64,000 bases of DNA, from the NCBI RefSeq assembly GCF_048771995.1, contig NC_133041.1, forward strand, positions 4,663,324 through 4,727,323, given 5' to 3'. Both the position numbers and the translations under genes were made by a program. Of the stretch, positions 1 through 64,000 are shown piece by piece (the stretch's first letter is position 1; the number at the start of each line of letters is the position of its first letter). The notes below the pieces were generated by a model. It was not told where the DNA came from, did not search any database, and was given only the letters and a program-made list of their open reading frames with translations. The stretch is from Taeniopygia guttata. Lineage: Eukaryota.

Positions 1-518
1 AACACACCTGGGTGGAGTCAGGGTACACCTGGATTGGGTTAGGGAACACCTGGATACACCTGGGTGGGGTCAGGGCACACCTGGGCACACTTGGAGGGGG
101 TAAAGACACACCTGGAGGGGGTTAGGGCACACCTGGGTGGGGTTGGGGCACACCCGGGTACACCAGGAGGGGGTCAGGGCACACCTGGGTGGGGTAAAGA
201 CACACCTGGGCACACCTGGGTGGGGTTGGGGCACACCTGGATACACCTGGAGGGGGTCAGGGCACACCTGTCCCTAAAATCTGTCCCTAAAATCTCAGGA
301 TTTTTGGGTTGAAATTCTGGATTTTTGGCATTTTTTTACCTGCCCAGGTGCGCCTCACCTGTTGCAGAAGTTCTCACCTGGTTTTGGGCCCTCACCTGTC
401 CCTAAAATCTCAGTATTTTTGGGTTAAAATTCCGGATTTTGGGCATTTTCTCACCTGCCCAGGTGTGCCTCACCTGTCTCACCTGTCCAGGTGTGCCTCA
501 CCTGTCTCACCTGCGCAG

Positions 519-678
519 GTTCGTGTACGCCAAGGACCGCACGGACCGGATCCGCACCTGCGCCATCCTGTGCCACATCTACCACCACGCCCTGCACAGC
601 CGCTGGTACCGCGCCCGCGACCTGATGCTGATGTCGCACCTGCAGGACAACATCCAGCACGCCGACCCACCTGTGCAG
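519..678 (+). CDS. EIF3C: EIF3C internal exon, translating (R)[53 protein letters not shown]; first EIF3C exon inside the window, upstream exons lie before position 1
   Basis: The translation is near-identical to the human eIF3c segment ...[49 protein letters not shown]. The acceptor is cgcag|g at 518/519 and the donor gtgcag|gtgagt at 678/679; the reading frame is continuous with the next exon. Confidence 0.88.
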
Positions 679-679
679 G

Positions 680-1615
680 TGAGTCTGATACACCTGGGCA
701 GGTAAATCACACACCTGGGCAGGTAAATCACACACCTGAGGGGGTTAAACACACCTGCAGGACAACATCCAGCACGCCGACCCACCTGTGCAGGTGAGTC
801 TGATACACCTGAGGGGGTTAAACACACCTGGGCAGGTGAGTCTGATACACCTGGGCAGGTAAATCTGACACACCTGAGGGGGTTAAACACACCTGCAGGA
901 CAACATCCAGCACGCCGACCCACCTGTGCAGGTGAGGGACACACCTGAGGGGGTTAAACACACACCTGAGGGGGTTAAACACACCTGCAGGACAACATCC
1001 AGCACGCCGACCCACCTGTGCAGGTAAAGCACACCTGGGCAGGTGAGTCTGACACACCTGTGCAGGTAAATCACACACCTGAGGGGGTTAAACACACCTG
1101 GGCAGGTGAGTCTGACACACCTGTGCAGGTAAATCACACACCTGAGGGGGTTAAACACACCTGGGCAGGTGAGTCTGACACACCTGGGCAGGTGAGTCTG
1201 ACACACCTGAGGGGGTTAAACACACACCTGGGGGGGTTAAACACACCTGGGCAGGTGAGTCTGACACACCTGAGGGGGTTAAACACACCTGCAGGACAAC
1301 ATCCAGCACGCCGACCCACCTGTGCAGGTGAGTCACACCTGGGCAGGTGAGTCTGACACACCTGAGGGGGTTAAACACACACCTGAGGGGGTTAAACACA
1401 CCTGGGCAGGGAAATCACACACCTGGGGGGGTTAAACACACCTGCAGGACAACATCCAGCACGCCGACCCACCTGTGCAGGTAAAGCACACCTGGGCAGG
1501 TGAGTCTGACACACCTGAGGGGGTTAAACACACCTGGGCAGGGAAATCACACACCTGAGGGGGTTAAACACACCTGCAGGACAACATCCAGCACGCCGAC
1601 CCACCTGAGCCCTAA
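680..1615 (+). repeat. Tandem array (CACCTG-core minisatellite) containing six degenerate copies of the last ~45 nt of the EIF3C exon at 519-678 ([13 protein letters not shown] plus the donor caggtgag)
   Basis: Copies lie at about 752-796, 888-936, 982-1030, 1286-1334, 1437-1487 and 1570-1606. Five keep the GT donor; the last is truncated. Confidence 0.9.
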
Positions 1616-4600
1616 AATTGCCAAAAAAATTTCCAAAAAATGCTAAAAAAAATCCCCCAAAAATGCTAAAAAAAATCCCCCAAAATTGCCAAAAAAATCC
1701 CGCAAATTTTCCAAAAAAATTGCTAAAAAAAAACCCCAAAATTACTAAAAAAATCGCCCAAAATTGCCAAAAAAACGCCCCAAAATTGCTTAAAAAAATG
1801 CCCCAAAATTCCTAAAAAAATCACCCAAGTTTTCCACAAATCACCAAAAATTGCTAAAAAATCACCCAAAAGTTTCCAAAAATCACCCAAAATTTACAAA
1901 AAATCACCCAAAATTTACAAAAATCACCCACTTGTCTCATCTGAGACTCATCTGGGCATCCTCATTTTTTACCCTAAATCCCTCCAAAAATCCCCCTCAA
2001 AACCCCCTAAAATCACCCAAAAATCACTGAAAATTGCCAAAAATCCCCAAAATCCCCAAAACCCCCAAAATCTCCTTTTTTCCCGCAGATCCTGTACAAC
2101 CGCACCATGGTGCAGCTGGGCATCTGCGCCTTCCCTCACCTGTCCCACCTGTCCCAAGAAACCCCCTAAAACCCCCTAAAATCACCCAAAATTGCCAGAA
2201 AAGTCACCAAAAACCGCCTTAAATCACCCAAAATTGCTAAAAAATTCCCCAAAATTGCTAACAAATTTTTCCAAAATTTCTAAAAAAATCCCTCAAAAAT
2301 GCTAAAAATATTCCTAAATTTGCCCCAAAATTCCCCAAAATTGCCAAAAAAAATTCCAAAAATTGCTAAAAAAAACCACCCAGAATTTTCCAAAAATCAC
2401 CCTAAATTGCCAAAAAATCCCCCAAAATTGCCCAAAAAATCCCCCAAAATTTACAAAAAATCACCGAAAATTGTTAAAAAATCAACCAAAAATCACCAAA
2501 AAAATCCCCAAAATCCTCCCAAAATCACCAAAAATCCCCCTCAAAACCCCCAAAATCCCCCAAAAATCCCAAAAATTCCCAAAAACCCCCAAAAACCCCC
2601 CAAAAATCTCCTTTTTTTCCAGATCCTGTACAACCGCACGATGGTGCAGCTGGGCATCTGCGCCTTCCCTCACCTGTCCCACCTGTCCCAAGAAACCCCC
2701 TAAAATCACCCAAAATTGCCAGAAAAATCACCAAAAACCATCTAAAATCACCCAAAATGGCCAAAAAAATCACTAAAAACCACCTAAAATCACCCAAAAT
2801 TGCTAAAAAAATCACCCAAAATTTCAAAAAAAAAAATCCCAAAATTGCCCAAAAAATCCCCCAAAATTGCTAAAAAATCACTCAAAATTGCTAAAAAAAA
2901 ATCACACAAAATTTACAAAAAATCCCCCAAAATTGCTAAAAAATCCCCTAAAATTGCCCAAAAAATCACTCAAAATTGCTATAAAAAATCCCCCAAAATT
3001 GCCCAAAAAATCCCCCAAATTTGCTCAAAAAAATCCCCCAAAATTGCCAAAAAATCACTCAAAATTGCTAAAAAAATCACATAAAATTTACAAAAAATCT
3101 CCCAAAATTGCTAAAAAAATCCCCCCAAAGTGCCATAAAATCACCCAAAATTGCCAAAGAAATCCCTTAAAATAGCTAAAAAATCTCACAAAATTGCCAA
3201 AAAAATTCCCCAAATTTTCAAAAATAATCCCCCAAATTTTCCAAAAATCACCCAGAATCTCTAACAAAATTCCCCCAAAATGCTAAAAAATCCCCAAAAA
3301 TTGCTAAAATAAATCACCCCAAAATTTTTTTTTAAATCCCCCAAAATTGCTTAAAAATCCCAGAAAATTGCTAAAAAAATTCCCCAAAATTGCTAAAAAA
3401 ATTCCCCAAAATTGCTAAAAAAATTCCCCAAAATTGCTAAAAAAAATCACCCGAAATTGCAAAAAAAACCACCCAAAATTGTTTAAAAATCACCCAAAAA
3501 TCACCAAAAAAATCCCCAAAATCCTCCCAAAATCACCAAAAATCACCAAAAAAAACCCCAAAATTCCCAAAATCCCCAAAACTCCCCAAAACCCCAAAAA
3601 TCTCCTTTTTTTTCCCCAGATCCTGTACAACCGCACGATGGTGCAGCTGGGCATCTGCGCCTTCCCTCACCTGTCCCACCTGTCCCAAGAAACCCCCTAA
3701 AGTCACCCAAAATTGCCAAAAAAATCACCAAAAACCATCTAAAATCACCCAAAATGGCCAAAAAAATCACTAAAAACCACCTAAAATCACCCAAAATTGC
3801 TAAAAAAATCACCCAAAATTTAAAAAAAAAAATCCCAAAATTGCCCAAAAAATCCCCCAAAATTGCCAAAAAAATCACCCAAAATTGCTAAAAAAATCAC
3901 CCAAAAATGCTAAAAAATCTTCCCAAAATTGCTAAAAAGAAATCCCTTCAAAATAGCTGAAAAATCCCCTAAATTTGCCCCAAAAATCCCCCAAAATTGC
4001 CAAAAAAATCACCCAAAATTGCTAACAAAATTCCCCAAAATTGCTAAAAGAATTCCCCAAAATTGCTGAAAAATCACCCAAATTTGCTCAAAAAAATCCC
4101 CCAGAATTTTGCAAAAATCACCAAAATTGCCAATAAAATCACCCAAAATTGCCAAAAATCACCTACATTTTCCAAAAATCACCCACCTGTCCCACTTGGG
4201 ACTCACCTGGGCACCTCAAATCCTCATTTTTTACCCTAAATCCCCCTAAAAATCCATCAAAAATCTCCCTCAAAACCCTCTAAAATTCCCCCAAAGCCCC
4301 TTAAAATCACTGAAAATTGCCAAAAATCACCAAAAACCCCCAAAAATCTCCCTTTTATCCCCAGATCCTGTACAACCGCACGATGGTGCAGCTGGGCATC
4401 TGCGCCTTCCCTCACCTGTCCCAAGAAACCCCCTAAAACCCCCTAAAATCACCCAAAATTGCCAGAAAAATCACCCAAAATTGCTAATAAAATTCCCCAA
4501 AATTGCTAAAAAAATCACCCAAATTTGCCAAAAAAATTCTTCAAAAATGCAAAAAAAATTCCCAAAAAATGTTTAAAAAATTCCCCAAAATTGCTAAAAA

Positions 4601-6475
4601 AATCACCCAAGATGTACAAAAAATGACTCGAAATTGCCAAAAAATACCCCAAATATTGCCAAAAAAATTGCCCAAAAATTCCCCAAAATTGCTTAAAAAT
4701 CCCTCAAAATTGCGAAAATAAATCCCCCAAAAATGCTAAAAAACCCCCCCAAAATGCTAAAAAAATCCCCTAAAATTGCAAAAAAAATCACCCAAAATTG
4801 CCAAAAAAAGCACCCAAAATTACTAAAAAATTTCCCAAAAATGCTAAAAATTCCCTTTAATTTGCCCCAAAAATCAGCCAAAATTGCCAAAGAAGTCCCT
4901 CAAAAATGCTAAAAAAATCCCCCAAAATTGCCATAAAATCCCCCAAAATTTTCCAAAAATCCCCCAAAATTGCCAAAAAAATCCCCCAAAAATCCCCAAA
5001 AACCCCCCAAAATCCCCAAAAATCCCAAAAAATCTCCTTTTTCCCAGCTCCTGTACAACCGCACGATGGTGCAGCTGGGCATCTGCGCCTTCCCTCACCT
5101 GTCCCAAGAAACCCCCTAAAATCACCCAAAATTCCCAAAAAAATCCCCCAAAATTGCTAAAAAAATCCCCCAAAATTGCCATAAAATCTCCCAAAATTGC
5201 TAAAAAATCCCGCAAAGCTGCTAAAAAAATCACCCAAAATTACCCAAAATATCCCCCAAAATTTACAAAAAACTACCCAAAAATGCTGAAAAATCCCCCA
5301 AAATTGCTAAAAAGAAATCCTCTCAAAATAGCTGAAAAATCCCCTAAATTTGCCCCAAAAATCCCCCAAAATTGCTCAAAAAATCCCCCAAAATTTCTTT
5401 AAAAATCCCTCAAAAATGCTAAAAAATGACCCAAAAATCCCCCCTAATTTACAAAAAATCACCCAAAATTGCTATAAATATTCCCTAAAATTGCTAAAAA
5501 AATCACTCAAAAGTCCCATAAAATCACCCAAAATTGCCAAAAATCACCCACATTTTCCAAAAATCACCCAAAATTGCTAAAAAAATCCCCCAAAATTGCC
5601 AAAAAAATTCCCAAAAATGCTAAAAATATCCCCCAAAATTTACAAAAAATTCCCAAAAATTGCCAAAAAATTACCAAAAAAATTCCCAAAATTCCCCAAA
5701 ATCCCAAAAAAAACCCCCAAAATCTCCAAAACTTTTTTTTTTGCAGATCCTGTACAACCGCACGATGGTGCAGCTGGGCATCTGCGCCTTCCCTCACCTG
5801 TCCCAAGAAACCCCTGAAAACCCCCTAAAATCACCCAAAATTGCCAGAAAAGTCACCAAAAACCATCTAAAATCACCTAAAATTGCCAAAAAAATTACAA
5901 AAAACCGCCTTAAATCACCCAAAATTGCTAAAAAAATCACCCAAAATTTCAAAAAAAAAATCCCAAAATTGCCAAAAAAATCCCCCAAATTTGCCCCAAA
6001 AAATCCCCCAAAATGCTAAAAAATCTCACTAAATTGCCAAAAAACTTCCTAAAATTCCTAAAAAATCCCACAAAATTGCTAAAGAAATCCCCCAAAAATG
6101 ATAAAAAAGTCACCCAGAATTTTCCAAAAATCACCCAAAATTGCCAAAAAAATCCCCCAAAATTGCTAAAAGAATCACCCAGAATGTTCCAAAAATCACC
6201 CAAAATTGCCAAAAAAAATCCCAAAAAATGCTAAAAAATATTCGAAGTTGCTAAAAAAACATCAAAATTGCCATAAAATCACCCAAAATTGCCCAAAAAC
6301 TCACCCAAAATTGCCAAAAAAATTCAACTAAATTGCCAAAAAAATCCCCCAAAATTTACAAAAAATCCCCCAAAAATCACCCAAAATTGTTAAAAAATCA
6401 CCCAAAAATCACAAAAAAACACCCCAAAATTCCCAAAACCCCCAAAAAACCCAAAAACCCCTTTTTTCTCCCCAG
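1616..6475 (+). repeat. 4.8-kb A-rich microsatellite-like array (ccaaaattgccaaaaaaatcacc variants) organised as ~0.7-kb higher-order units, each carrying a copy of the first ~50 nt of the next EIF3C exon with its acceptor (cag|ATCCTGTACAACCGCACGATGGTGCAGCTGGGCATCTGCGCCTTCC)
   Basis: Pseudo-exon copies lie at about 2089, 2623, 3619, 4364, 5048 (an atc-to-ctc variant) and 5747. The real exon starts at 6476. After gccttcc, every copy diverges to ctcacctgtccc. Confidence 0.9.
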
Positions 6476-6839
6476 ATCCTGTACAACCGCACGATGGTGC
6501 AGCTGGGCATCTGCGCCTTCCGGCAGGGGCTGATCAAGGACGCGCACAACGCGCTGCTGGACATCCAGAGCTCCGGCCGGGCCAAGGAGCTGCTGGGCCA
6601 AGGTCTTCTCCTGCGCAGCCTCCAGGAGCGCAACGCCGAGCAGGAGAAGGTGGAGAAGCGCCGCCAGGTGCCCTTCCACATGCACGTCAACCTGGAGCTC
6701 CTCGAGTGCGTCTACCTGGTGGCCGCCATGCTGCTGGAGATCCCCTACATGGCGGCGCACGAGTTCGACGCGCGCCGCCGCATGATCAGCAAGCAGTTCC
6801 ACCACCAGCTGCGCGTGGGCGAGAGGCAGCCGCTGCTGG
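6476..6839 (+). CDS. EIF3C: EIF3C exon, translating [122 protein letters not shown]
   Basis: About 95% identity to the PCI-domain region of human eIF3c. The acceptor is ccccag|atc and the donor ctgctgg|gtgagg, leaving phase 1 to join the next exon. Confidence 0.9.
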
Positions 6840-6849
6840 GTGAGGGGCA

Positions 6850-8930
6850 GATTTAGGAATTTTTATCCAAAATTGGGTTCTTGAGGTCCATAATTACCTC
6901 AGTTCGGTCTTGGTTTGGTTTTTCTATCACTTAAAATGGCAGTTGTAGATCTTCTTGAGGTTCCTCAGACCATTTGTGGCATTTTACCAGATTTGGAGGT
7001 TTTGGGATGAAATTTTGTGTTCTTGAGGTCCATAATTATCTTGATTTGGTCTTGGTTTGGTTTTTCTACCCCTTAAAATGGCGGTTCTAGATCTTCTTGA
7101 GGTTCCTCAGACCGTGCTTAGAGATTTTGACCAAAATTTTGGGATTTTGACCCAGAATTGGGTTCTTCAGGTCCATAATTACCTTAATTCAGCCTTGGTT
7201 TTGTTTTTCTATTTCTTAAAATGGCGGTTCTAGATCTTCATGAGGTTCCTCAGACTGTGCTTAGAGATTTTGACCAAAATTTCGGGATTTTGACTCAAAA
7301 TTGGGTTCTTGAGGTCCATAATTACCTTAATTTGGCTTTACTTTGGTTTTTGTATCACTTAAAATGGCCGTTCTAGATCTTCATTAGGTTCCTCAAACCA
7401 TGGTTGGTGGTTTTTGAACATAATTGGAAGTTTTAGGTTGAAATTTTGGGGTTTTGGGGTCAAAAGTTGGGTTTGGAGGTCCATAATTATCTTAATTCGG
7501 TCTTGGTTTGGTTTATCTATCTCTTAAAATGGCGATTCTAGATCTTCTTGAGGTTCCTCAGACTGTGCTTAGAGATTTTGACCAAAATTTCAGGATTTTG
7601 ACTCAAAATTGGGCTCTTGAGGTCCATAATTACCTTAATTCAGTTTTAGTTTGGTTTTTTTATCACTTAAAATGGCGGTTCTAGATCTTCTTGAGGTTTC
7701 TCAGACAAAAATTGAGTTTTTTCACCGAAGTCTAGGAATTTTGACCCAAAATTGGGTTCTTGAGGCCCATAATTACCTTTATTTGGTCTTGGTTTGGTTT
7801 TTCTATCTCTTAAAATGGCGGGTCTAGATCTTCATAAAGTTCCTCAAATCATGTCTGGTGGCTTTGACCAGAGTTTGTTGATTTTGACCCAAAATTGGGT
7901 TCATCAGGTCCATAATTACTTAATTTGGTCTTGGTTTGGTTTTTGTATCACTTAAAATGAAGATTTTAGATCTTCTTGAGGTTCTTCACACCATGGTTGG
8001 TGGTTTTTACCAAAATTTTGGGATTTTGACCCAGAATTGGGTTCTTCAGGTCCATAATTACTTAATTTGGTCTTGGTTTCGTTTTTCTATCTCTTAAAAT
8101 CGCGGTTCCAGACCTTCATGAGGTTCCTCAGACCATGGTGTGGGATTTTGACCAAAATTTTGGGATTTTGACCCAGAATTGGGTTCTTGAGGTCCATAAT
8201 TACTTTGATTTGGTCTTGGTTTGGTTTTTTTATCTCTAAAAATGAAGATTCTAGATCTTCCTGAGGTTCCTCAGACAATGGTTGGGGATTTTGACCAAAA
8301 TTTCAGGATTTTGATCCAGAATTGGGTTCTTGAGGTCCATAATTATCCTAATTCAGCTTTAGTTACCTTTTTTAGCCCTTAAAATGGCGGTTCTAGATCT
8401 TCATTATGTTCCTCAGACCATTTGTGGTATTTTACCAAATTTGGAGGTCTTAGCTTGAAATTTTGGGGTCTTGAGGTCCATAATTACCTTAATTCAGTTT
8501 TAGTTTGTTTTTTTTTATCACTTAAAATGGCGGTTCTAGATCTTCCTGAGGTTCCTCAGACCGTGATTTGAGATTTTGACAAAAATTTAGGAATTTTTAT
8601 CTAAAATTGGGTTCTTGAGGTCCATAATTATCCTAATTCAGCTTTAGTTACCTTTTTTAGCCCTTAAAATGGCGGTTCTAGATCTTCCTTAGGTTCCTCA
8701 GACCATTTGTGGTATTTTACCAGATTTGGAGGTTTTGGGATGAAATTTTGGGTTCTTGAGGTCCATAATTACTTAATTTGGTCTTGGTTTGGTTTTTTTA
8801 TCTCTTAAAATGAAGATTCTAGATCTTCCTTAGGTTCCTCAGACCATGGTTTGGGATTTTGACCAAAATTTCGGGATTTTGACCCAGAATTGGGTTCTTC
8901 AGCTCCATAATTACCTTAATTCGGCTTTAC
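6850..8930 (+). repeat. About 15 tandem copies of a ~140-bp AT-richer satellite (core ...gttcttgaggtccataattaccttaattcagtcttggtttggtttttctatcacttaaaatggcggttctagatcttcttgaggttcctcagacc...gattttgaccaaaattt.gggattttgacccagaattgg) in an EIF3C intron
   Basis: ggtccataatta recurs about every 135-150 bp from 6886 to 8905. Copies are 85-95% identical. Confidence 0.9.
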
Positions 8931-9331: not shown

Positions 9332-9339
9332 GTGAGCAC

Positions 9340-11396: not shown

Positions 11397-11399
11397 GTC

Positions 11400-55534: not shown

Positions 55535-56266
55535 CTGCGGGGGGCGGAGCCCGGTCAGAATGGCCACGCCCACTTCGAATTTTACTCAATTTCTGCGATT
55601 TTTGACCCAATTTTGGGATTTTGACCCAATTTTTGGGATTTTGGACCAAATTTTTGGGATTTTGGTCCCAATTTTTGGGATTTTTGGACCCCATTTTGGG
55701 AGATTTAAACCAATTTTAAAGCCTCAGCCCCAATTTGCATAGCCACGCCCACCTGACCCCGCCCAAATCCAATTTTTTGTAAATTTAAACGAATTTTCGC
55801 AAATTTTGACCCAATTTGGGTGATTTTGACCCAATTTTGCTGATTTTGACCCCATTTTTGGATAATTTAAAGTCATTTTAGAGCCCCAACCCCATTTTTG
55901 CATAACCACACCCACCCACAAAAAGCTCCGCCCAGTTGGCCCCACCCCAAATCCTTTTTTTTTTGTAATTTTGGATAAAATTCGTCCAATTTTGACCCAA
56001 TTTTGGGTGACTTCGACCTGATTTTGTAAGATTTAAACAAAATTTAAAGCCCCACACCCACTTTTGCATAACCACGCCCCCCACAAGAAGCCACGCCCAC
56101 AAGGCAAAAAAAATTTAACAATTTTGGTGATTTTTGACCAAATTTGAGAAATTTTGCCCCAAATTTTTGGGTTTTTTTTGGCCCCTCCCCCTTCTGAGGT
56201 GTGGCCCCAGGTGGGCGTGGCCCTGAGGTGAGGCCACGCCCCCCGAGCGAGGCCACGCCCCCTTAC

Positions 56267-56339
56267 CTGGGGTAGGAGGAGGCCAAGGTCAAGAAGGTCA
56301 CCTCGCCAAGCCCCGCCCCCGCACTGCCCAGCGCCACAC
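56267..56339 (-). CDS. CLN3: CLN3 exon, translating (G)[23 protein letters not shown](S/R)
   Basis: Aligns to human [25 protein letters not shown]. The acceptor is cactcag|gt and the donor ccccag|gtaagg. Confidence 0.85.
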
Positions 56340-57195
56340 CTGAGTGACCAATGGGGGAGCGTGAGTGACCGGTGAGTGACCTCTGACCCCGAGTGACACT
56401 GAGTGACCCATGAGTGACCCCAGAGTGACCCCTGAGTGACCAATGAGTGACCAGTGAGTGACCCCGAGTGACCCTGAGTGACCCTGAGTGACCACTGAGT
56501 GACCCCTGAGTGACCAATGAGTGACCCTGAGTGACCCCTGAGTGACCAATGAGTGACCAATGAGTGACCAATGAGTGACCAATGAGTGACCACTGAGTGA
56601 CCCCTGAGTGACCCCGAGTGACCCCTGAGTGACCAATGAGTGACCCCGAGTGACCAATGAGTGACCAATGAGTGACCAATGAGTGACCCCGAGTGACCAA
56701 TGAGTGACCAATGAGTGACCCCTGAGTGACCCCTGAGTGACCCCTGAGTGACCCTGAGTGACCAATGAGTGACCAATGAGTGACCCTGAGTGACCCTGAG
56801 TGACCAATGAGTGACCAATGAGTGACCCTGAGTGACCAATGAGTGACCAATGAGTGACCAATGAGTGACCCTGAGTGACCCTGAGTGACCAATGAGTGAC
56901 CCTGAGTGACCCCTGAGTGACCACTGAGTGACCCCTGAGTGACCCCGAGTGACCCTGAGTGACCCTGAGTGACCCTGAGTGACCACTGAGTGACCCCTGA
57001 GTGACCCCGAGTGACCCTGAGTGACCCTGAGTGACCCTGAGTGACCCTGAGTGACCACTGAGTGACCCTGAGTGACCAATGAGTGACCCCGAATGACCCC
57101 TGAGTGACCCCTGAGTGACCCTGAGTGACCCCTGAGTGACCCTGAGTGACCCCGAGTGACCCCTGAGTGACCCCGAGTGACCCCGAGTGACCGCT
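56340..57195 (+). repeat. gtgaccaatgagtgaccc / gtgaccctgagtgaccc array between two CLN3 exons, the reverse complement of the GTGAGTCAC-type donor satellite
   Basis: On the minus strand it reads ggtcactcagg units. It abuts the acceptor of exon 56267-56339 and the donor of exon 57199-57284. Confidence 0.88.
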
Positions 57196-57198
57196 CAC

Positions 57199-57284
57199 CC
57201 CCCAGGCCGCTCAGGGTCCCTCTGGCCGCGGCCACGGCGCTGAGGCTGCCCCAGAGGCAGAGAGCCACGGCCACCGCGCGGCAC
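57199..57284 (-). CDS. CLN3: CLN3 exon, translating (R)CRAVAVALCLWGSLSAVAAARGTLSGLG(G)
   Basis: Aligns to human [28 protein letters not shown]. The acceptor is ccgtag|g and the donor gggg|gtgagcgg. Confidence 0.8.
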
Positions 57285-57299
57285 CTACGGGACAAAAAT

Positions 57300-58800
57300 C
57301 CCCTTTTTTACCCCCAAAATTCACTTTTTTAACCCCAAATTCCCTTTTTTAAATAAAAACAATTCTTTTCCCAAAAAAAATCCGTTTGTACCTCTCCAAA
57401 ATTCCATTTTTTCCCCCCTTAAATCCCGTTTTCTCTCTAAAACTTGCATTTCCTGCCGTAAAAATTCCCATTTTTTACCTCAAAATTCCCTTTTCACTCT
57501 AAATTCCCTTTTTCTGCCTAAAAATCCTTTTTCCCCAAAAAAATTCTTTTTTTATTCCCCAAAGTTCCACTTTTTCCCCATAAAAATTTCCTTTTTTCAT
57601 TGCATATTCACTTTCTCCCCCAAAATTCCATTTTCCCCTATAAAAATCCCCCTTTTTCTCCCCAAAATTCCCTTTTCACCCAAATATCCCTTTTTAGCCT
57701 AAAAATCCTTTTTCCCCCAAAAAATTCTTTTTTTATTCCCCAAAGTTCCACTTTTCCCCCATAAAAATTTCCTTTTTTCACCCCCCAAAATTCCCTTTGC
57801 ACCCCAAAAATCCATTTTTTACACTAAAGTTGATTTCTGCCCCCAAAAATCCTTTTTTCTCTTTAAAAATTCCTTTCTCCCCTGAAAACTCCCTTTTAAT
57901 CTTTTAATTCCCAAATTTACAATTTTTCGCCCCAATATTCCCCTTTTTTCCCAAAAATCACACTTTTTTACCCTCAAATCCCCCTTCTCACCCCCAAATC
58001 CCATTTTCCATCCCAAAATTTCCCTTTTTTCCCCAAAAATCCCATTTTTTCCCTCTAAATTCCCCTTTTTTTTCTCAAAAATCCCATTTTTTCCCTCCAA
58101 ATTCCCCTTTTTTCCTGCATATTCACTTTCTCCCCAAAATTTCCATTTTCCCCTCTAAAATTTGCATTTTTCCCCATAAAAATTCTATTTTTTCACCCCA
58201 AAAATCCCTTTTTTACCCCAAAGTTGATTTTTTACCCCCAAAATCCCATTTTTTTCCCTAAAAATTCCTTTCTCCCCCTGAAAACTCCCTTTTAACCCCC
58301 AAATTTACAATTTTTGACCCCAAAATTCCCTTTTTTTCCCAAAAATCACACTTTTTCACCCTCAAATTCCCCTTTTCACCCCCAAATCCCATTTTCCATC
58401 CCAAAATTCCCCTTTTTTCCCCAAAAATCCCATTTTTTCCCTCTAAATACCCTTTTTTTCTCAAAAATCCCATTTTTTCCCTCCAAACTCCCTTTTTTCC
58501 TGCATATTCACTTTCTCCCCAAAAATTCCATTTTCCCTCTAAAATTTGCATTTTTCCCCATAAAAATCCACTTTTTTCACCCCAAAATTCCCTTTTCACC
58601 CTAAGTTCCCTTTTTCTGCCTAAAAATCCTTTTTCCCAAAAAAATTTCTTATTTTATTCCCCAAAACTCCACTTTTCCCCCATAAAAATTTCCTTTTTTC
58701 ACCTTCCAAAATTCCCTTTTTTTACCCCAAATCCCCTTTACCCCCCAAAATTCCCCTTTACACCCTCAACCTTTCTCATTTCCTCCCCAAAATTTGCATT
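57300..58800 (+). repeat. ccccaaaattccctttttt minisatellite with ~290-bp higher-order periodicity
   Basis: Seen directly (compare 57560-57780 with 58130-58330). Confidence 0.85.
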
Positions 58801-58909
58801 TTCCTCCCCAAAATCCCCTCCTTGCTCTCGCCCCGCCCAATTTAAGCCACGCCCCTTTATGCCACGCCCACTTTAATCCCCGCCCCTTTAAGCCCCGCCC
58901 CTTTCTCAC

Positions 58910-58989
58910 CTGTCGGGCAGGTACGGCCCCAGCAGGGGCAGCAGCAGCTTCACCACCAGGGCGGGGACGACGTCGGCCAATAGCACGGC
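58910..58989 (-). CDS. CLN3: CLN3 exon, translating AVLLADVVPALVVKLLLPLLGPYLPD(R)
   Basis: Aligns to human [30 protein letters not shown]. The acceptor is attcag|gcc and the donor gacag|gtgagaaag. Confidence 0.85.
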
Positions 58990-59029
58990 CTGAATGGCCA
59001 CGCCCACACGGCCACGCCCAGTTAAGCCC

Positions 59030-60400
59030 CACCCACTTTTAAATTTAACCCCTCTCTTAAAACCCCGCCCCTTTTAGCCACACCCAATCAAACCCTGCCT
59101 ATTTAAATCCCACCCCTTCAAGCCCCTCCTATTTAATCTCCATAATTTAAGCCCCGCCCATTTAGGCTCCGCCCTTTTAAGACCCTCCCACTTAAGCCCC
59201 ATCCCTTAAAGCATTTCCAATTTAAGCCCCACCCACAAAGCCCAACCCCTTTAAGCTCCTCCCACTTGAGCCGCACCCATTTAAGCCCCACCCCTTAAAG
59301 CTTTTCCCATTTAAACCCCACCCATTTAAGCTCCACCCCTTTAAGCTCCTCCTATTTAATCTCCATAATTTAAGCCCCACCCATTTAAGCTCCTCCCACT
59401 TAAGCCACACCCATTTAAACCCCACCCCATAAATTTTTTATGATTTAAACCCTGCCCATTTTAAGCCCCACCCCTTTAAGCTCCTCCCACTTGAGCCCCA
59501 CCCCTTTAAGCCCCACCCCTTAAAGCTCCTCCCATTTAAACCCCGCCCTTTTAAGCCCCACCCCTTTAAGCCCCTCCCTTTAAAGCCCCACCCATTTAAG
59601 CCCCGCCCCTCAAAGATTTTCCTATTTAAACCCCGCCCCTTTAAGCCACACCCCTTTAAGCTCCTCCCACTTGAGCCCCACCCCTTTAAGCCCCACCCCT
59701 CAAAGCTTTTCCTATTTAAACTCCGCCCATTTTAAGCCCCACCCCTTTAAGATCCTCCTATTTAATCTCCATAATTTAAGCCCCACCCATTTAAACTCCT
59801 CCCACTTAAGCCACACCCATTTAAACCCCGCCCCATAATTTTTTATTATTTAAACCCCGCCCATTTTAAGCCACACCCATTTAAGCTCCTCCCACTTAAG
59901 CCCCACCCATTTAAGCCCCACCCCAAAGCTTTTCCTAATTAAACCCCGCCCATTTTAAGCCCCACCCCTTTAAACTCCTCCTATTTAATCTCCATAATTT
60001 AAGCCCCACCCCTTTAAGCTCCTCCCACTTAACCCCCACCCATTTAAGCCCCACCTCCAAAGATTTTACTATTTAAACTCTGCCCCTTTAAGCCCCACCC
60101 CTTTAAGCTCCTCCCACTTGAGCCCCACCCCTTAAAGCCCCTCCATTTAAACCCCGCCCCTTTAAGCCCCACCCATTTAAGCTCCTCCCACTTGAGCCAC
60201 ACCCATTTAGGCCACACCCCTCAAAGCTTTTACCATTTAAATATTGCCCCTTTAAGCCACACCCCTTTAAGCCCCTCCTGTTAATGCCCCACCCACTTAA
60301 TCCCCACCCCTTTATCACCCTGTCACTTTAAGCCACACCCACAAAGCCACACCCTTTATGCCCCGCCCCTTAAGCCACGCCCCCTTAAGCCCCACCCACC
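59030..60400 (+). repeat. About 35 copies of a ~40-bp unit aagccccacccatttaagctcctcccacttaagccacaccc, dense in CCACGCCC / CCCCGCCC / CCACACCC (SP/KLF-type) boxes
   Basis: Seen directly. It lies in the CLN3 intron where the human gene encodes its first lumenal loop. Confidence 0.85.
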
Positions 60401-60573
60401 CCTGTCCCCACAGGGTCGCAGTCGTGCCGGCTCCGATTCCGCGGCTCCTCCCCCTAAAAAAACCCGGGAAAACCCCAAAAATCCAGTCAGGAAAGGGGCG
60501 TGGCCACCCAAAAAAGGGGCGTGACCATCTAAAAAGGGGTGTGGTCCCCAAAAAAGGGGGCGTGGCCACTCAC

Positions 60574-60649
60574 GGGGCGTGGCTCCAGCAGGTCGCGGGC
60601 GGCGCTGAGCATCACCACGTACGGGAGGTTGTTGCACAGCCCCAAAATC
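60574..60649 (-). CDS. CLN3: CLN3 exon, translating (W)[25 protein letters not shown]
   Basis: Aligns to human [26 protein letters not shown]. The acceptor is ctacag|g and the donor cgcccc|gtgagtgg. Confidence 0.85.
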
Positions 60650-61167
60650 CTGTAGGGGCGGGGCTTAGGTGGGCGTGGCCACACTTGTGGGCGTGGTCAC
60701 AGATGGGTGTGGCTCGTCTGGAAGGGGCGTGGTTATGGGGGAAAGGGGAGGGGCCAAAATGGGGCAGTTTTGGCGGGAAATTTTTATGGGGTTGGAGTGG
60801 GGTTTAAATGGGTGTGGCAAAAGGGGCGGGGCTTAAATGGGTGGGGTGTCCACAAAATGGCTCCATTTTGGCGGGAAATTTTGGGGGAGAGTCTGTGTGG
60901 GCGTGGCCACAGGTTGGAGGGTCCGAAATGGGCGGTGCTTAAATGGGTGGAGTGCCCCTAAAATGTCTCAAGTTTGGCGGGAATTTCTTAAATGGGGGAG
61001 GGGCTTAAATGGGTGTGGCCACTCAGGTGGGTGTGGTCCAAAATGGGCGGGGTTTAAATGGGTGGGGGTGTCTCCAAAAGTGCTGAGTTTTGGGGGGAAA
61101 TTTGGCGGTTTTAGGGGTGTGGGAGGGGCTTAGGGGGCGTGGCCTCTTGTGGGGGCGGGGCACTTAC

Positions 61168-61231
61168 CAAAAAGCGGCTCCGATTCGCCAGGAAGGGGTC
61201 GGAGGGGGCGGGGCAGGGGCGGAGTCTTCAT
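61168..61231 (-). CDS. CLN3: CLN3 exon 2, translating (D)EDSAPAPPPPTPSWRIGAAF(W)
   Basis: Aligns to human [28 protein letters not shown]. The acceptor is ccaccag|at and the donor tttttg|gtaagtgcc. Confidence 0.75.
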
Positions 61232-61447
61232 CTGGTGGGGAGGGAGGGAAAGAGAAAAATTTCCAAAGGGATTTTGGGGCAATTTTAGGAGATTTTGGGG
61301 TTGTTTTTTCCCATCCCGCTCCCCACTCCCGGTTCCATTTCCTGCCTCCATTCATGTCCGTTTATCCCCGTTTTAATTCCAGGTTTTTTACCCCGAATTC
61401 CCAATTTTTAACCCTATTTTTAAATCCATATTTTTTTCCCCTCTCAC

Positions 61448-61478
61448 CCTGCTGCAGCAGCGGTTCCTCGTCCGCCAT
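61448..61478 (-). CDS. CLN3: CLN3 exon 1 coding part, translating MADEEPLLQQ(D)
   Basis: The ATG is the complement of 61476-61478 and the donor cagcagg|gtgagag is on the minus strand. It joins exon 2 in frame. The N-terminus is acidic like human MGGCAGSRRRFSDSEGEE. Immediately upstream, on the minus strand, are the TCACGTGA and TCATGTGA boxes. Confidence 0.65.
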
Positions 61479-61855
61479 GTTGAACACCGGTCATGTGACA
61501 CCGCCATCACGTGATTACCCCAAACTTAATCCCCATTGGGCGCTGCGTGGGCGTGGCTTTGAGACAGAAAAATGCATATTAATAACTTAGGGCGTGGCTT
61601 TGTAATAAGTTCATTCATATAATCACTATTGTGAGCGTGGTTTAAGAGCTCATAAATAATGATGTTACACAGGAGCGGGTTGGCGCCATATAAGGTAAAA
61701 AAGGCGTGATTTTGACCATATATGGTGCTAAGTGGGCGTGGCTTGTGGCTCCCCCTTTCCCTCCCGCTTCTCCCCTCAGGAGGCGCCGCCATTTTCTCCC
61801 CCCGCCGCCATTTTCTGCCCCCCCCCCCCCCTCCGCCATCCCCGTTTTTCCCCTC
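61479..61855. promoter_or_regulatory. Bidirectional CLN3 (-) / SGF29 (+) promoter interval, about 380 bp between the ATGs, with a palindromic E-box/CLEAR-type site aTCACGTGAt at 61506-61515 and an M-box-like TCATGTGA at 61491-61498, plus GC boxes (gggcgtggc)
   Basis: The motifs are seen directly in the sequence. CLEAR elements (GTCACGTGAC, bound by TFEB/TFE3) are characteristic of lysosomal gene promoters including CLN3; that part is established knowledge. Confidence 0.55.
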
Positions 61856-61930
61856 ATGGCGCTCGTCTCGGCCGATTCGCGCATCGCGGAGTTGCTGGGG
61901 GAGCTGCACCAGCTCATCAAACAGACGCAG
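61856..61930 (+). CDS. SGF29: SGF29 (CCDC101) exon 1, translating MALVSADSRIAELLGELHQLIKQTQ
   Basis: Matches the human SGF29 N-terminus MALVSADSRIAELLTELHQLIKQTQ as I recall it. The donor is acgcag|gtaccc. The ATG lies about 380 bp from the CLN3 ATG on the opposite strand. Confidence 0.82.
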
Positions 61931-62099
61931 GTACCCCCATTTATTTTAGGTTTTTCCCCTTTTTTATTTATTTTTTTTTTTAAGGATTTTTGGGGGTTTT
62001 TTTCCCTCAGGGTTTCCCCGTTTTGCAGCCCCGGGTCCCGTTTGGCCCTGAGGGATCCTCAAGGGTTTCGGTCTTTTCAAACTGTTTCCGCTGAGGGAG

Positions 62100-63180
62100 C
62101 CCAAAATCAATAATTTCACCCCAAAATAAGCCTTTTGCCCATCAGGGATCCCAAAAAATCACATACTTAACCCAAGAATCACCCATTTCACCCCAAAATA
62201 TGTTTTTTTCCCCCTCAGGGATCTCAAAAATCACACATTTAACCCAAGAATCACCCATTTCACCCCAAAATATTTTTTTTCCCCTCAGGGATCTCAAAAA
62301 TCACCTATTTCACCCCAAAATCACCCATTTCACTCCAAAATCAATTTTATTTCCCCATAGGATTCCAAAAATCACCCATTTAACCCCAAAATAACATTTT
62401 TTCCCCTCACTGATTACAAAAATCACCCATTTCACCCAAAAATCACCCATTTCACCCCCAATTCACCCATTTTACCCCAAAATCACCCATTTCACCCCAA
62501 AAATCACCAATTTCAGCACAAAATATCTTTTTTCCCCCTCACTGAGCCAAAAAAATCACCATTTCACATCCAAAATCAACTTTTTATTCCCTCAGGAATC
62601 TCAAAAATCACCCATTTTACCCCAAATCAGCAATTTCACCCAAAATAAACTTTTTTTTTCCCTTCACAAACCCCAAAAATCACCCATTTCACCCCAAAAT
62701 CACCCATTTCACCCCAAAAATCAACATTTTTTGCACCTTTCAACTTATTTTCTTCATTTCCCCAGTTTTTCCTAATTTCCCTCCTTTTTTCGTCATTTCC
62801 CCCTTCTCCTTTTTTCATTTCCCCATTTTTTCCTAATTCCCCCCCTTTTCCCCTCCACTTTCTTAATTTTCCCCCCATTTCCCCCTATTTTCCATTCTTT
62901 TTTCCTAATTTTCCCCCATTTCCCCCCCTTTTCCCTTCAGTTTTTCCCCATTTTCCCCCTCTTTACTAATTTCACCCCTTTTTTCCTTCCTTTACTTTTC
63001 ATTTACCCCTTTTTTTCCTAATTTCCTCCCCTTTCACCTCCTTTTTTTCCTCCTTTCCCCCTCTTTTCACCTCCTTTTTTCCCCATTTCCCCTCCTTTTT
63101 TCTTCATTTTCCCCAATTTCCCCCCCTTTTTCCCTCTTTTCCCCCAATTTTTCCCAAATTCCCCAATTTTTCTCCCCTCA
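62100..63180 (+). repeat. caccccaaaatcacccatttcac minisatellite in SGF29 intron 1; ctcacaattccctcctttttcct array from 63410
   Basis: Seen directly. Confidence 0.85.
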
Positions 63181-63181
63181 G

Positions 63182-63257
63182 GAGGAGCGTTCCCGCAGCG
63201 AGCACAACCTGGTGAACATCCAGAAGACGCACGAGCGGATGCAGACGGAGAACAAAA
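63182..63257 (+). CDS. SGF29: SGF29 exon 2, translating EERSRSEHNLVNIQKTHERMQTENK(I)
   Basis: Identical to human EERSRSEHNLVNIQKTHERMQTENKI. The acceptor is ccctcag|gag and the donor aaaa|gtaaaa. Confidence 0.85.
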
Positions 63258-63331
63258 GTAAAAAAATTCCGAGGTTTAAAGGGAATTTTGGGGCTTTTTG
63301 GCACATTTTGACTCTCAAAATTCCATTTTAG

Positions 63332-63404
63332 TTTCCCCCTATTACCGCACCAAGCTCCGAGGGCTCTACACCACAGCCAAGGCTGATGCCGAAGCCGAGT
63401 GCAA
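63332..63404 (+). CDS. SGF29: SGF29 exon 3, translating (I)SPYYRTKLRGLYTTAKADAEAEC(N)
   Basis: Identical to human SPYYRTKLRGLYTTAKADAEAECN. The acceptor is tttag|tt and the donor tgcaa|gtgagt. The gene continues beyond the window. Confidence 0.85.
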
Positions 63405-64000
63405 GTGAGTCCAAAATCCACAATTTTAAACCCAAAACCCCTCAAATTCTCATTTTATCCCCTCAAATTCCCATATTTCCCCTTCAAATTCCCATTTTAT
63501 CCCTTCAAATTCCCATTTTTCCCCCGTAAATTCCGATTTCCTCCCCCAGATTTCCACTTTTTGCACTCACATTTTCTTTTTTCCCCTCAGATTTCTGCTT
63601 TTTAACCTCAAATTCCCACTTTATCCCTTCAAATTCCCATTTTTCCCCTTCAAATTCCCATTTCTTCTGCAGTTCCCCCCTTTTTCCTCACAGTTCTCTT
63701 ATTTTTCCTCTCAATTCCCGTTTTTTCCCCACAATTCTCTCCTTTTCCCCCACAATTCCCTCCTTTTTCTTTACAATTCCCTCCTTTTTTCTCACAATTC
63801 CTTCCTTTTTCCTCATATTCCCTTATCTCCCCTCACAATTACCTTTTTTTCTCAAATTCTCTCCTTTTTCTTTAAAATTCCCTCATTTTTCCTGAAAATT
63901 CCCCCCTTTTTCCTCACAATTCCTTTTCCCCCACAATTGCTCCCTTTTTCTTTAAAATTCCCCCCTTTTTCTTTTTAAATTCCATTTTCTTTACAATTCC

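What the first reader, a model, noticed from the sequence alone, without database searches (positions are those of the whole stretch)
1..64000. Locus-level picture: five genes with total coding sequence under 5 kb in 64 kb, introns almost entirely satellite, and 16p11.2 synteny with PRODH2 inserted between EIF3C and MAZ
Exons average about 100 nt and sit 1-6 kb apart, separated by arrays that are individually homogeneous but differ from intron to intron. This is the architecture reported for hard-to-assemble GC-rich microchromosomal regions. The junction of PRODH2 (human 19q13) with 16p11.2 genes, and the CLN3-SGF29 adjacency, are rearrangements relative to human. If this is a recent long-read assembly, these genes may be among those previously called missing in the taxon.
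Basis: partly seen in the sequence, partly recalled or inferred. Interest (0 to 1): 0.65.

Follow-up and report, generated by a model that had tools for sequence, protein, structure and literature searches.

The report
Zebra finch dot-chromosome genes, repeat-filled introns
This is a zebra finch micro ("dot") chromosome segment carrying EIF3C, PRODH2, MAZ, CLN3 and SGF29, whose introns are about 90% tandem repeats; the picture is real but matches the recently published "sequence stuttering" of bird dot chromosomes, and PRODH2 beside EIF3C is the ancestral vertebrate order, not an insertion.

Summary
The window is zebra finch: its exon chains reproduce the RefSeq proteins for hydroxyproline dehydrogenase, MAZ and battenin. 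It carries EIF3C (3' part, +), PRODH2 (+), MAZ (+), CLN3 (-) and SGF29 (first 3 exons, +).

Key numbers:
- 4.6 kb of coding sequence in 39 exons (median 88 nt).
- 34 introns (median 1.2 kb, maximum 5.8 kb).
- 82% of the window and 90% of intron bases are tandem repeat.

The interpretation needs correcting:
1. The architecture is published. It is "sequence stuttering" on chicken dot chromosomes (Hron 2026, which lists chicken EIF3C and MAZ), and intronic minisatellites are described for zebra finch dot chromosomes. I found 19 partial exon-edge copies with intact splice sites.
2. EIF3C-PRODH2 adjacency occurs in a fish, a lizard, ostrich and gannet, so it is ancestral and mammals are derived.
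3. Both PRODH2 boundaries are collinear with an independent Lonchura assembly, so there is no sign of chimerism.
4. CLN3-SGF29 head-to-head adjacency is shared by gannet, owl and wagtail.
5. The only lineage-specific junction is MAZ|CLN3 (44.8-48.0 kb). It fits an inversion of the EIF3C-PRODH2-MAZ block or a misjoin.
6. The window is 48% GC, not GC-rich; only the exons are (GC3 0.85-0.95).
7. None of the genes appears in the searchable text of the classic "missing in birds" paper.

Ordinary for a dot chromosome; modest interest.

The parts
520..16824 (+). EIF3C, last seven coding exons (human residues ~554-913): 520-678, 6476-6839, 9172-9331, 11331-11396, 12860-12947, 16414-16576, 16745-16824 (includes the stop codon)
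   Evidence: Exact spliced chain with GT/AG junctions. 93% identity to human eIF3c residues 607-885. Pfam eIF-3c_N and PCI.
637..1612 (+). Exon stuttering: six extra copies of the last 42 nt of EIF3C exon 520-678. Five of them carry a GTGAG or GTAAA donor. Copies start at 752, 890, 982, 1286, 1439 and 1571.
   Evidence: Five copies are 42/42 identical to the exon.
2089..6475 (+). Exon stuttering: six extra copies of the first 45 nt of EIF3C exon 6476-6839. Each has a polypyrimidine tract and a CAG acceptor. Copies start at 2089, 2623, 3620, 4365, 5048 and 5747, embedded in a 22-bp AAAATCACCCAAAATTGCCAAA array.
9846..9899 (+). Extra copy of the last 54 nt of EIF3C exon 9172-9331, together with its donor site
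15791..16413 (+). Three extra copies (15791, 15945, 16260) of the first 36 nt of EIF3C exon 16414-16576, each with its acceptor, inside a 154-bp-period array
20400..32614 (+). PRODH2 (hydroxyproline dehydrogenase), ten coding exons: 20400-20561 (the annotated start lies further 5' inside the array), 22393-22583, 23741-23861, 24939-25019, 25140-25220, 25977-26129, 27118-27284, 29047-29157, 31056-31132, 32445-32614
   Evidence: Chains for RefSeq isoforms X2, X3 and X4 match exactly from residue 40 onward. Named hits. Pfam Pro_dh.
23981..24022 (+). Extra copy of the last 36 nt of PRODH2 exon 3, with a GTGAGT donor
35284..44519 (+). MAZ. Putative exon 1 at 35284-35319 (inferred). Exon 2 ends at 38895, and its open frame extends 5' to about 38300; the RefSeq protein starts at the Met at 38441. 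Remaining exons: 40692-40755, 43146-43296, 44431-44519.
   Evidence: Exact chain for T. guttata MAZ P0241. Exon 1 is 94% identical to Lonchura in collinear position. The frame was read.
42791..43145 (+). Two extra copies (42850, 42998) of the first 66 nt of MAZ exon 43146-43296, each with its acceptor. The unit is 148 bp at 98% identity.
44800..47979 (.). MAZ|CLN3 tail-to-tail junction. This is the only gene junction in the window not seen in other birds, and it consists almost entirely of arrays (90/233-bp units and a 2-kb CAGTGGTCACT array).
   Evidence: Thrush and sparrow have INO80E after MAZ. Gannet and owl have EIF3C after CLN3. Homology to the sparrow MAZ 3' flank ends near 44790.
47980..61478 (-). 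CLN3 (battenin), 14 coding exons: 61448-61478, 61168-61231, 60574-60649, 60400-60453, 58910-58989, 57199-57284, 56267-56339, 55394-55534, 54069-54174, 52270-52338, 51651-51706, 50592-50685, 48708-48851, 47980-48096
   Evidence: Chains for RefSeq battenin isoforms X1 and X2, with one residue difference in exon 54069-54174. Pfam CLN3.
61479..61855 (.). A 377-bp spacer between the divergent CLN3 and SGF29 start codons, probably a bidirectional promoter. It lies in the largest repeat-free stretch of the window (60570-62099).
   Evidence: The same head-to-head pair occurs in owl (740 bp apart) and gannet.
61856..63405 (+). SGF29, first three coding exons (61856-61930, 63182-63257, 63332-63405). The gene runs off the window.
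   Evidence: Orthologous exons lie in genes annotated with SGF29_Tudor in owl, gannet and wagtail.

Best explanation
The window is part of the euchromatic arm of a zebra finch dot microchromosome. It carries five conserved housekeeping-type genes from the block that corresponds to human 16p11.2, plus PRODH2.

The coding exons are intact and extremely GC3-rich. Almost every intron and intergenic spacer has been filled by local, imperfect tandem expansion of short sequences, the 'sequence stuttering' described for chicken dot chromosomes. The expansions start from sequence already in that intron. In six places they start from an exon edge together with its splice site (exon stuttering).

The arrays are inherited: orthologous introns of two estrildid finches keep the same motif. 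Their length changes fast. The likely cause is replication slippage or unequal exchange and gene conversion in a very highly recombining, non-B-DNA-prone region. This mechanism is inferred, not shown here.

The gene order EIF3C-PRODH2 is the ancestral bony-vertebrate order. PRODH2-MAZ and SGF29-CLN3 adjacency are shared among birds. Only the MAZ|CLN3 junction is specific to this assembly or lineage. It is best explained by an inversion of the EIF3C-PRODH2-MAZ block.
For: - Species and genes.
- Repeat load: 82% of the window and 90% of intron bases.
- Bird specificity at this same locus. The TRF fraction is 0.63 in ostrich, 0.42 in gannet, 0.71 in owl and 0.75-0.87 in four passerines, against 0.01 in a lizard and 0.02 in a fish.
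- Exon stuttering: 19 extra exon-edge copies, 18 of them with intact splice sites. CAGGTGAGT occurs 28 times against 0.23 expected.
- Published description of exactly this pattern, with chicken EIF3C (chr38:191080-288434) and MAZ (chr38:339873-355391) among the 115 exon-stuttering genes (PMC12954441).
- Zebra finch dot chromosomes with intronic minisatellites (10.1101/2025.10.14.682431).
- Arrays are homologous but change in length. In a zebra finch x Lonchura comparison of PRODH2 introns, 0.11-0.68 of 12-mers are shared on the diagonal and about 0 off it. Intron 2 is 1.1 kb against 4.2 kb, and intron 4 is 92 bp against 1199 bp.
- Exon-copy numbers differ between the two finches, and ostrich and gannet have single copies.
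- Synteny.
Against: - Chromosome identity is inferred, not read from a record name. My look-ups of the zebra finch proteins themselves failed.
- No read-level data were available, so array lengths in this assembly are unverified. The annotated PRODH2 N-terminus, which is translated from an array, differs in repeat number from the window. This shows that at least one array differs between zebra finch sequences.
- The proposed inversion rests on composite gene orders from different species. The second breakpoint is outside the window, so a misjoin within the 3-kb array block at 44.8-48.0 kb cannot be excluded.
- The mechanism of expansion is inference from the literature.
Confidence: 0.85

Rival explanations
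1. Assembly artefact: the window is a chimeric join of unrelated GC-rich or repeat-rich contigs, specifically at the PRODH2 boundaries.
For: Arrays of this kind are hard to assemble. The window has no read-level support that I can inspect.
Against: - Unique intergenic segments 18678-19252 and 33875-35319 align in order with the Lonchura striata chromosome CM100646.1, between the same genes.
- EIF3C-PRODH2-MAZ is also the order in ostrich.
- PRODH2-MAZ is the order in thrush and sparrow.
- EIF3C-PRODH2 is the order in gannet, lizard and fish.
Confidence: 0.03
2. The MAZ|CLN3 junction (44.8-48.0 kb) is a scaffolding or assembly misjoin or misorientation inside satellite arrays, rather than a real inversion in the zebra finch lineage.
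For: - No other bird examined shows MAZ next to CLN3.
- The junction is 3 kb of arrays whose 11-mer family (GGTCACTCA) also occurs in other introns in both orientations.
- Another passerine assembly (wagtail) has a 1000-N gap directly after CLN3, which shows this spot is assembly-prone.
Against: - The window has no N.
- The arrangement is exactly what a simple inversion of one three-gene block would give.
- Homology to the sparrow MAZ 3' flank runs uninterrupted to about 44790.
Confidence: 0.2
3. PRODH2 was transposed into the 16p11.2-like block in the bird lineage.
For: In human, PRODH2 is on 19q13 (own knowledge). In two eutherians, PRODH2 and CLN3 lie on contigs of different length: Talpa 59.1 against 103.4 Mb, and Camelus 80.5 against 32.9 Mb.
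Against: - EIF3C is the immediate upstream neighbour of PRODH2, on the same strand, in the teleost Albula goreensis and the lizard Elgaria.
- PRODH2 and MAZ share a contig in alligator and at least nine teleosts.
Confidence: 0.02
4. The intronic arrays and exon-edge copies are functional, for example splice decoys, elongation-rate or G4/non-B regulatory elements, and are maintained by selection rather than being neutral by-products of instability.
For: - The exon-derived parts of the copies are 98-100% identical to the true exon, while their flanks vary.
- Intron-specific motifs persist between two finch genera.
- 25 perfect consensus donors lie in sense orientation in the EIF3C part of the window; 24 of them are intronic decoys and one, at 676, is the true donor.
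Against: - Copy numbers and array lengths differ freely between close relatives, and the copies are absent in ostrich and gannet.
- High identity is equally expected from recent duplication or gene conversion.
- Chicken data show intraspecific length variation (PMC12954441).
Confidence: 0.1

Closest known systems
'Sequence stuttering' (intronic and exon stuttering) of genes on chicken dot chromosomes, Hron et al., Genome Biol Evol 2026 (PMC12954441)
   Same: - Introns are almost entirely covered by imperfect local tandem repeats that stay within single introns.
- Coding exons are intact.
- Lateral parts of exons, with their splice site, are copied into the adjacent intron.
- Array length differs between relatives.
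- The chicken orthologues EIF3C and MAZ (chr38) are themselves on the published exon-stuttering list.
   Different: - This is a songbird, not chicken.
- The paper suggests that orthologous introns of related species expanded independently. Here, orthologous PRODH2 introns of two estrildid genera share the same motifs, so these arrays predate that split and mainly change in length.
- Many arrays here are AT-rich (32-41% GC), and the window is only 48% GC.
Euchromatic arm of zebra finch dot chromosomes in the T2T assembly bTaeGut7 (bioRxiv 10.1101/2025.10.14.682431)
   Same: - The species is the same.
- Gene-dense euchromatin with minisatellites concentrated in introns and non-B DNA motifs matches.
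   Different: The preprint describes this genome-wide. As far as the text searched shows, this locus, its exon-edge copies and its gene order are not discussed individually.
Human 16p11.2 gene block (CLN3, SGF29, EIF3C, MAZ, INO80E, TBX6, BOLA2, SLX1) and PRODH2 at 19q13 (human positions from my own knowledge)
   Same: - The gene set is the same.
- CLN3 and SGF29 are divergently oriented.
- EIF3C and MAZ are on the same strand.
- In the other loci examined, the neighbours of these genes match 16p11.2-type families: INO80E (thrush, sparrow), BolA and SLX1 domains (owl), and a T-box gene (fish).
   Different: - PRODH2 lies between EIF3C and MAZ in birds, and next to EIF3C in fish and lizard.
- APOBR, IL27 and NUPR1 are not between CLN3 and SGF29.
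- The distances are kilobases, not hundreds of kilobases.
Intronic satellite DNA in gigantic Drosophila Y-linked genes (reviewed by Fingerhut and Yamashita 2022, cited in PMC12954441)
   Same: Functional genes whose introns consist mainly of tandem repeats that must be transcribed and spliced out.
   Different: - There the introns are megabase-scale arrays of simple satellites shared between genes, in heterochromatin.
- Here the arrays are kilobase-scale and intron-specific, sit in gene-dense euchromatin, and include exon-edge copies.

Membership tests
Avian dot-chromosome 'sequence stuttering' locus | Introns largely covered by TRF-detectable simple or tandem repeats (chicken dot chromosomes: median intron coverage 7-93%, other chromosomes about 0) | tested here: met
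   90% of 48.2 kb of intron sequence is covered. 27 of 34 introns are at least 80% covered.
Avian dot-chromosome 'sequence stuttering' locus | Repeat clusters are confined to individual introns and coding exons stay intact | tested here: met
   Exact GT/AG exon chains reproduce the RefSeq PRODH2, MAZ and CLN3 proteins. Only 11% of exon bases are touched by TRF. There are about 38 motif families, mostly intron-specific.
Avian dot-chromosome 'sequence stuttering' locus | Exon stuttering: a lateral part of an exon, with its splice site, is copied into the adjacent intron | tested here: met
   There are 19 extra copies at six exon edges in EIF3C, PRODH2 and MAZ. All are in the proximal intron, and 18 have a donor or acceptor preserved.
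Avian dot-chromosome 'sequence stuttering' locus | Location on a dot chromosome | tested here: inconclusive
   The zebra finch contig with PRODH2 and MAZ is 5,740,876 bp, against 5.99 +/- 1.57 Mb for dot chromosomes. The chicken orthologues are on chr38. The record name of the window itself could not be retrieved.
Avian dot-chromosome 'sequence stuttering' locus | Intron length varies within or between closely related genomes | tested here: met
   - Between genera: PRODH2 introns differ by up to 13-fold between zebra finch and Lonchura, and exon-copy numbers differ.
- Within the species there is only a hint: the array-encoded PRODH2 N-terminus differs by about 32 residues between RefSeq and the window.
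PRODH2 / hydroxyproline dehydrogenase orthologue | Pro_dh domain, with best hits named hydroxyproline dehydrogenase rather than PRODH | tested here: met
   All named hits among the 120 listed are hydroxyproline dehydrogenase or 'proline dehydrogenase 2'. Pfam PF01619.
EIF3C orthologue | Collinear high identity to eIF3c, including the PCI domain | tested here: met
   563 bits and 93% identity to human eIF3c residues 607-885 without gaps. Pfam PF05470 and PF01399.
MAZ orthologue | Best named hits are MAZ, not other C2H2 proteins | tested here: met
   T. guttata MAZ matches at 100% identity, followed by MAZ of other vertebrates; VEZF1-named fish proteins score lower. A PDB search gave only generic zinc-finger hits.
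SGF29 orthologue | Tandem Tudor domain (PF07039) | not testable with these tools
   The Tudor exons lie beyond the window end. The three N-terminal exons match the first exons of genes carrying PF07039 in owl, gannet and wagtail at 96-100% identity.
Genes 'missing in birds' (Lovell et al. 2014 list) | Gene listed as absent from avian genomes | tested here: not met
   MAZ, PRODH2, EIF3C, CLN3, CCDC101 and SGF29 do not occur in the main text or the four held supplementary files. They also do not occur in Kim et al. 2022. Supplements not held as text could not be searched.

The most novel reading that the evidence does not exclude
The zebra finch lineage carries a real inversion of the three-gene block EIF3C-PRODH2-MAZ, with its breakpoints inside stuttering arrays. 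Motif families such as GGTCACTCA occur in both orientations and could mediate non-allelic exchange. If so, intronic and intergenic stuttering arrays would drive fine-scale gene-order change on dot chromosomes. In addition, the near-perfect identity of exon-edge copies to their parent exons would reflect ongoing gene conversion between decoy copies and the real exon.
Probability: 0.3. Interest if true: 0.5.

Novelty: new member of a known kind. Interest (0 to 1): 0.3.

Why it matters
The finding mainly serves as a clean songbird example of a phenomenon published so far for chicken. It shows the following at one orthologous locus:
- Stuttering is present from ostrich to passerines and absent in a lizard and a fish.
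- Arrays can persist as intron-specific lineages across genera while changing length many-fold.
- An essential gene (EIF3C) tolerates dozens of perfect decoy splice sites in its introns.

It also corrects the polarity of a synteny claim. PRODH2 next to EIF3C is ancestral and the mammalian position is derived. Finally, it points to one junction (MAZ|CLN3) that deserves read-level validation in the zebra finch reference. Nothing here opens a long-standing question by itself.

Tried and rejected
- Look-ups of the zebra finch proteins themselves (P0001, P0014, P0241) found no record. I therefore could not read the window's own accession or its annotated neighbours.
- A PDB search with the SGF29 N-terminus found nothing. 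A PDB search with the MAZ zinc fingers gave only generic zinc-finger proteins.
- An unmasked tblastx of thrush and sparrow flanks against the window was swamped by low-complexity repeat matches and was discarded. I replaced it with a targeted tblastn using an INO80E N-terminus recalled from memory. That query was validated by 81-85% hits in the thrush and sparrow loci, and it found nothing significant in the window.
- Wagtail seemed to place a kinase after CLN3, but a 1000-N gap lies at that point, so I did not use it.
- The 297-aa 'gene' between ostrich EIF3C and PRODH2 is a translated tandem repeat, not a sixth gene.
- Searches for the five gene names found nothing in the main text or held supplements of Lovell 2014 and Kim 2022, and a full-text library search found no relevant paper.
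- A fixed-spacing G4 pattern was nearly absent (2 hits) and uninformative.
- There were no tRNA or Rfam hits.

Full report
WHAT IS THERE

The window has no Ns and is 48.3% GC. Tandem Repeats Finder at score >=50 covers 81.8% of it. What remains is about 65 short unique segments, most of them 60-77% GC. I translated those segments and searched the peptides to identify the genes.

- EIF3C. The plus-strand peptides between 520 and 16824 align without gaps to human eIF3c residues 607-885 at 93% identity (563 bits). They hit Pfam eIF-3c_N and PCI.
- PRODH2. Peptides at 20.4-32.6 kb hit hydroxyproline dehydrogenase. The best hit is Taeniopygia guttata isoform X3, and many exons are 100% identical.
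- MAZ. Peptides at 38.4-44.5 kb hit T. guttata MAZ at 100% identity.
- CLN3. Minus-strand peptides at 48.0-61.5 kb hit T. guttata battenin.
- SGF29. Three plus-strand exons at 61.9-63.4 kb are 96-100% identical to the first exons of genes annotated with SGF29_Tudor in little owl, gannet and white wagtail.

A splice-aware exact chaining (GT/GC...AG, exact translation) reproduces the RefSeq proteins. PRODH2 matches from residue 40 to the end, MAZ matches completely, and CLN3 matches except for one residue. The window is therefore zebra finch. It may be a different haplotype or assembly version from the annotated one, because the array-encoded N-terminus of PRODH2 differs in repeat number.

THE NUMBERS BEHIND THE OBSERVATION

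- Coding sequence totals 4605 nt in 39 exons (mean 118, median 88 nt).
- There are 34 introns of 74-5797 nt (median 1235).
- TRF covers 90% of intron bases, 75% of intergenic bases and 11% of exon bases.
- Exon GC is 0.60-0.75 and GC3 is 0.85-0.95, whereas many arrays are 32-41% GC.

Greedy selection gives 74 non-redundant arrays, which fall into about 38 families by shared 9-mers. Most families are confined to one intron. Four recur across introns and genes, in either orientation:
- A/T-rich TTTTGGG(T/C)GA-type repeats.
- GGTCACTCA 11-mers.
- CACACCTGGG 10-mers.
- GATCTATGGGGCAG 20-mers.

Within-array identity is mostly 62-87%, so 'homogeneous' overstates it.

EXON-EDGE COPIES

Six exon edges are themselves part of the arrays. 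Counts of extra copies in the proximal intron are:

| Exon edge | Extra copies |
|---|---|
| last 42 nt of EIF3C exon 520-678 | 6 |
| first 45 nt of EIF3C exon 6476-6839 | 6 |
| 3' end of EIF3C exon 9172-9331 | 1 |
| 5' end of EIF3C exon 16414-16576 | 3 |
| 3' end of PRODH2 exon 3 | 1 |
| 5' end of MAZ exon 43146-43296 | 2 |

That makes 19 copies. The copies keep the splice signal: GTGAGT or GTAAAG donors, or a polypyrimidine tract plus CAG acceptor. They are 98-100% identical to the parent exon, while the flanks vary.

The perfect donor consensus CAGGTGAGT occurs 28 times against 0.23 expected. Of these, 25 are in sense orientation within EIF3C, and only one is the real site.

Ostrich and gannet have single copies of the EIF3C edges. 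Lonchura has one extra copy where zebra finch has three, and none at the PRODH2 edge. The duplications are therefore recent and lineage-specific.

THIS IS A PUBLISHED KIND OF ARCHITECTURE

Hron et al. (Genome Biol Evol 2026, PMC12954441) describe 'sequence stuttering' on chicken dot chromosomes. Its features are:
- Introns filled by imperfect local tandem repeats that do not cross exons.
- 'Exon stuttering', which copies a lateral part of an exon with its splice site.
- Strong intraspecific length variation.

Their supplementary list of 115 exon-stuttering genes includes chicken EIF3C (chr38:191080-288434) and MAZ (chr38:339873-355391).

The T2T zebra finch preprint (10.1101/2025.10.14.682431) reports 11 dot chromosomes of 5.99 +/- 1.57 Mb, whose euchromatin has minisatellites and non-B motifs concentrated in introns. 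The zebra finch contig bearing PRODH2 and MAZ is 5.74 Mb.

The window is thus a songbird instance of a known phenomenon.

WHAT MY COMPARISONS ADD

1. At this same locus the TRF fraction varies by lineage.

| Group | TRF fraction |
|---|---|
| ostrich | 0.63 |
| gannet | 0.42 |
| owl | 0.71 |
| four passerines | 0.75-0.87 |
| lizard | 0.01 |
| teleost | 0.02 |

2. Orthologous PRODH2 introns of zebra finch and Lonchura share 11-68% of their 12-mers, and non-orthologous introns share about none (introns 5 and 6 share one family). Lengths differ by up to 13-fold. These arrays were therefore inherited from the common ancestor and mainly change in length. They are also real in two independent assemblies.

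SYNTENY

Using proteins returned by the searches, I fetched the orthologous loci with their annotated neighbours.

| Species | Gene order |
|---|---|
| Ostrich | EIF3C(+), PRODH2(+), MAZ(+) |
| Lonchura | EIF3C(+), PRODH2(+), MAZ(+) |
| Thrush, sparrow | PRODH2(+), MAZ(+), INO80E(-) |
| Gannet | SGF29(-), CLN3(+), EIF3C(+), PRODH2(+) |
| Little owl | BolA, SLX1, SGF29(-), CLN3(+), EIF3C(+) |
| Lizard Elgaria | EIF3C(+), PRODH2(+), an EF-hand gene |
| Teleost Albula | EIF3C(+), PRODH2(+), a T-box gene, a kinase |

In ostrich, a 297-aa 'gene' annotated between EIF3C and PRODH2 is a translated tandem repeat.

PRODH2 and MAZ also share a contig in alligator and in at least nine teleosts. In two eutherians, PRODH2 and CLN3 lie on contigs of different length.

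From this I draw four conclusions:
- PRODH2 beside EIF3C is the ancestral bony-vertebrate arrangement and the mammalian position is derived. It was not inserted in birds.
- The CLN3-SGF29 divergent pair is shared by all four birds examined for it (zebra finch, gannet, owl, wagtail). In the window the two start codons are only 377 bp apart, inside the largest repeat-free stretch.
The unique intergenic segments at both PRODH2 boundaries (18678-19252, 33875-33950, 34554-35319) align in order with Lonchura, between the same genes.
- The composite bird order is SGF29(-) CLN3(+) EIF3C(+) PRODH2(+) MAZ(+) INO80E(-).

The window shows EIF3C(+) PRODH2(+) MAZ(+) CLN3(-) SGF29(+). That is exactly what inversion of the EIF3C-PRODH2-MAZ block would produce. 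INO80E is absent from the window. Homology to the sparrow MAZ 3' flank ends near 44790, so the breakpoint lies in the array block at 44.8-48.0 kb.

I cannot tell a true inversion from a misjoin. The second breakpoint is outside the window and my locus look-ups were exhausted. A wagtail locus that seemed informative has a 1000-N gap at the critical point.

'MISSING' GENES

None of the five names (nor CCDC101) occurs in the text or held supplements of Lovell et al. 2014 or Kim et al. 2022. PRODH2 and CLN3 were already predicted in Pseudopodoces humilis on contigs of only 36 and 119 kb.

Kim et al. do report eight newly found zebra finch microchromosomes under 6 Mb, carrying 322 genes that were entirely absent from the old assembly. 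Absence from that one assembly is therefore plausible, but it is untested.

VERDICT

The locus is a new member of a known kind. The residual points of interest are the possible array-mediated inversion at MAZ|CLN3 and the tolerance of many perfect decoy splice sites in EIF3C.

Human chromosomal positions and gene orders quoted here are from my own knowledge, not from a tool.

Noticed in passing
window 676-16392, + strand: The perfect 5' splice-site consensus CAGGTGAGT occurs 28 times in the window against 0.23 expected. 25 of these are in sense orientation within EIF3C, and only the one at 676 is the true donor. Many arrays seem to be built around CAGGTG/CACCTG cores, as if seeded from exon-intron junctions.
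   Followed up: partly
window 20187-20561: The RefSeq N-terminus of zebra finch PRODH2 (MPGSMGQEGSVGQEGSMG...) is a translation of the upstream tandem array. It differs from the window by about 32 residues of repeat. Either the annotated start codon is dubious, or this array is length-polymorphic between zebra finch sequences.
   Followed up: partly
window 25977-29157 (PRODH2 exons 6-8): RefSeq isoforms X2, X3 and X4 each skip a different single internal exon: 27118-27284, 29047-29157 and 25977-26129 respectively. This looks more like an annotation or alignment difficulty in repeat-filled introns than real alternative splicing.
   Followed up: no
window 61479-61855: The CLN3 and SGF29 start codons are divergent and only 377 bp apart. 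They lie in the largest repeat-free stretch of the window (60570-62099; CpG o/e 0.65). This is probably a shared bidirectional promoter, and the pairing is conserved in owl and gannet.
   Followed up: partly
L001 6569-7504 (ostrich, between EIF3C and PRODH2): The annotated 297-aa minus-strand gene is a translated proline-rich tandem repeat (PAPSGPKPAPSGPE...). It is almost certainly a spurious gene model.
   Followed up: yes
L005 18558-19786 against window 25020-25139: PRODH2 intron 4 is 120 bp in zebra finch but about 1.2 kb in Lonchura. There a motif (AAAGGGGCGTGG...) has expanded into an array, while zebra finch intron 4 is too short to hold a comparable array. This is an example of a new array arising in one lineage.
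   Followed up: partly
L007 29061-29876 (little owl): A second CLN3-like gene (410 aa, 'battenin-like') is annotated overlapping the EIF3C gene downstream of CLN3. It may be a local duplication or an annotation artefact.
   Followed up: no
L001, L002, L007 against the window and L005-L009: Base composition of the orthologous locus differs strongly between bird groups. GC is 0.72 in ostrich, 0.68 in gannet and 0.60 in owl, against 0.48-0.54 in five passerines. The passerine arrays are much more A/T-rich, while exon GC3 stays around 0.9.
   Followed up: no
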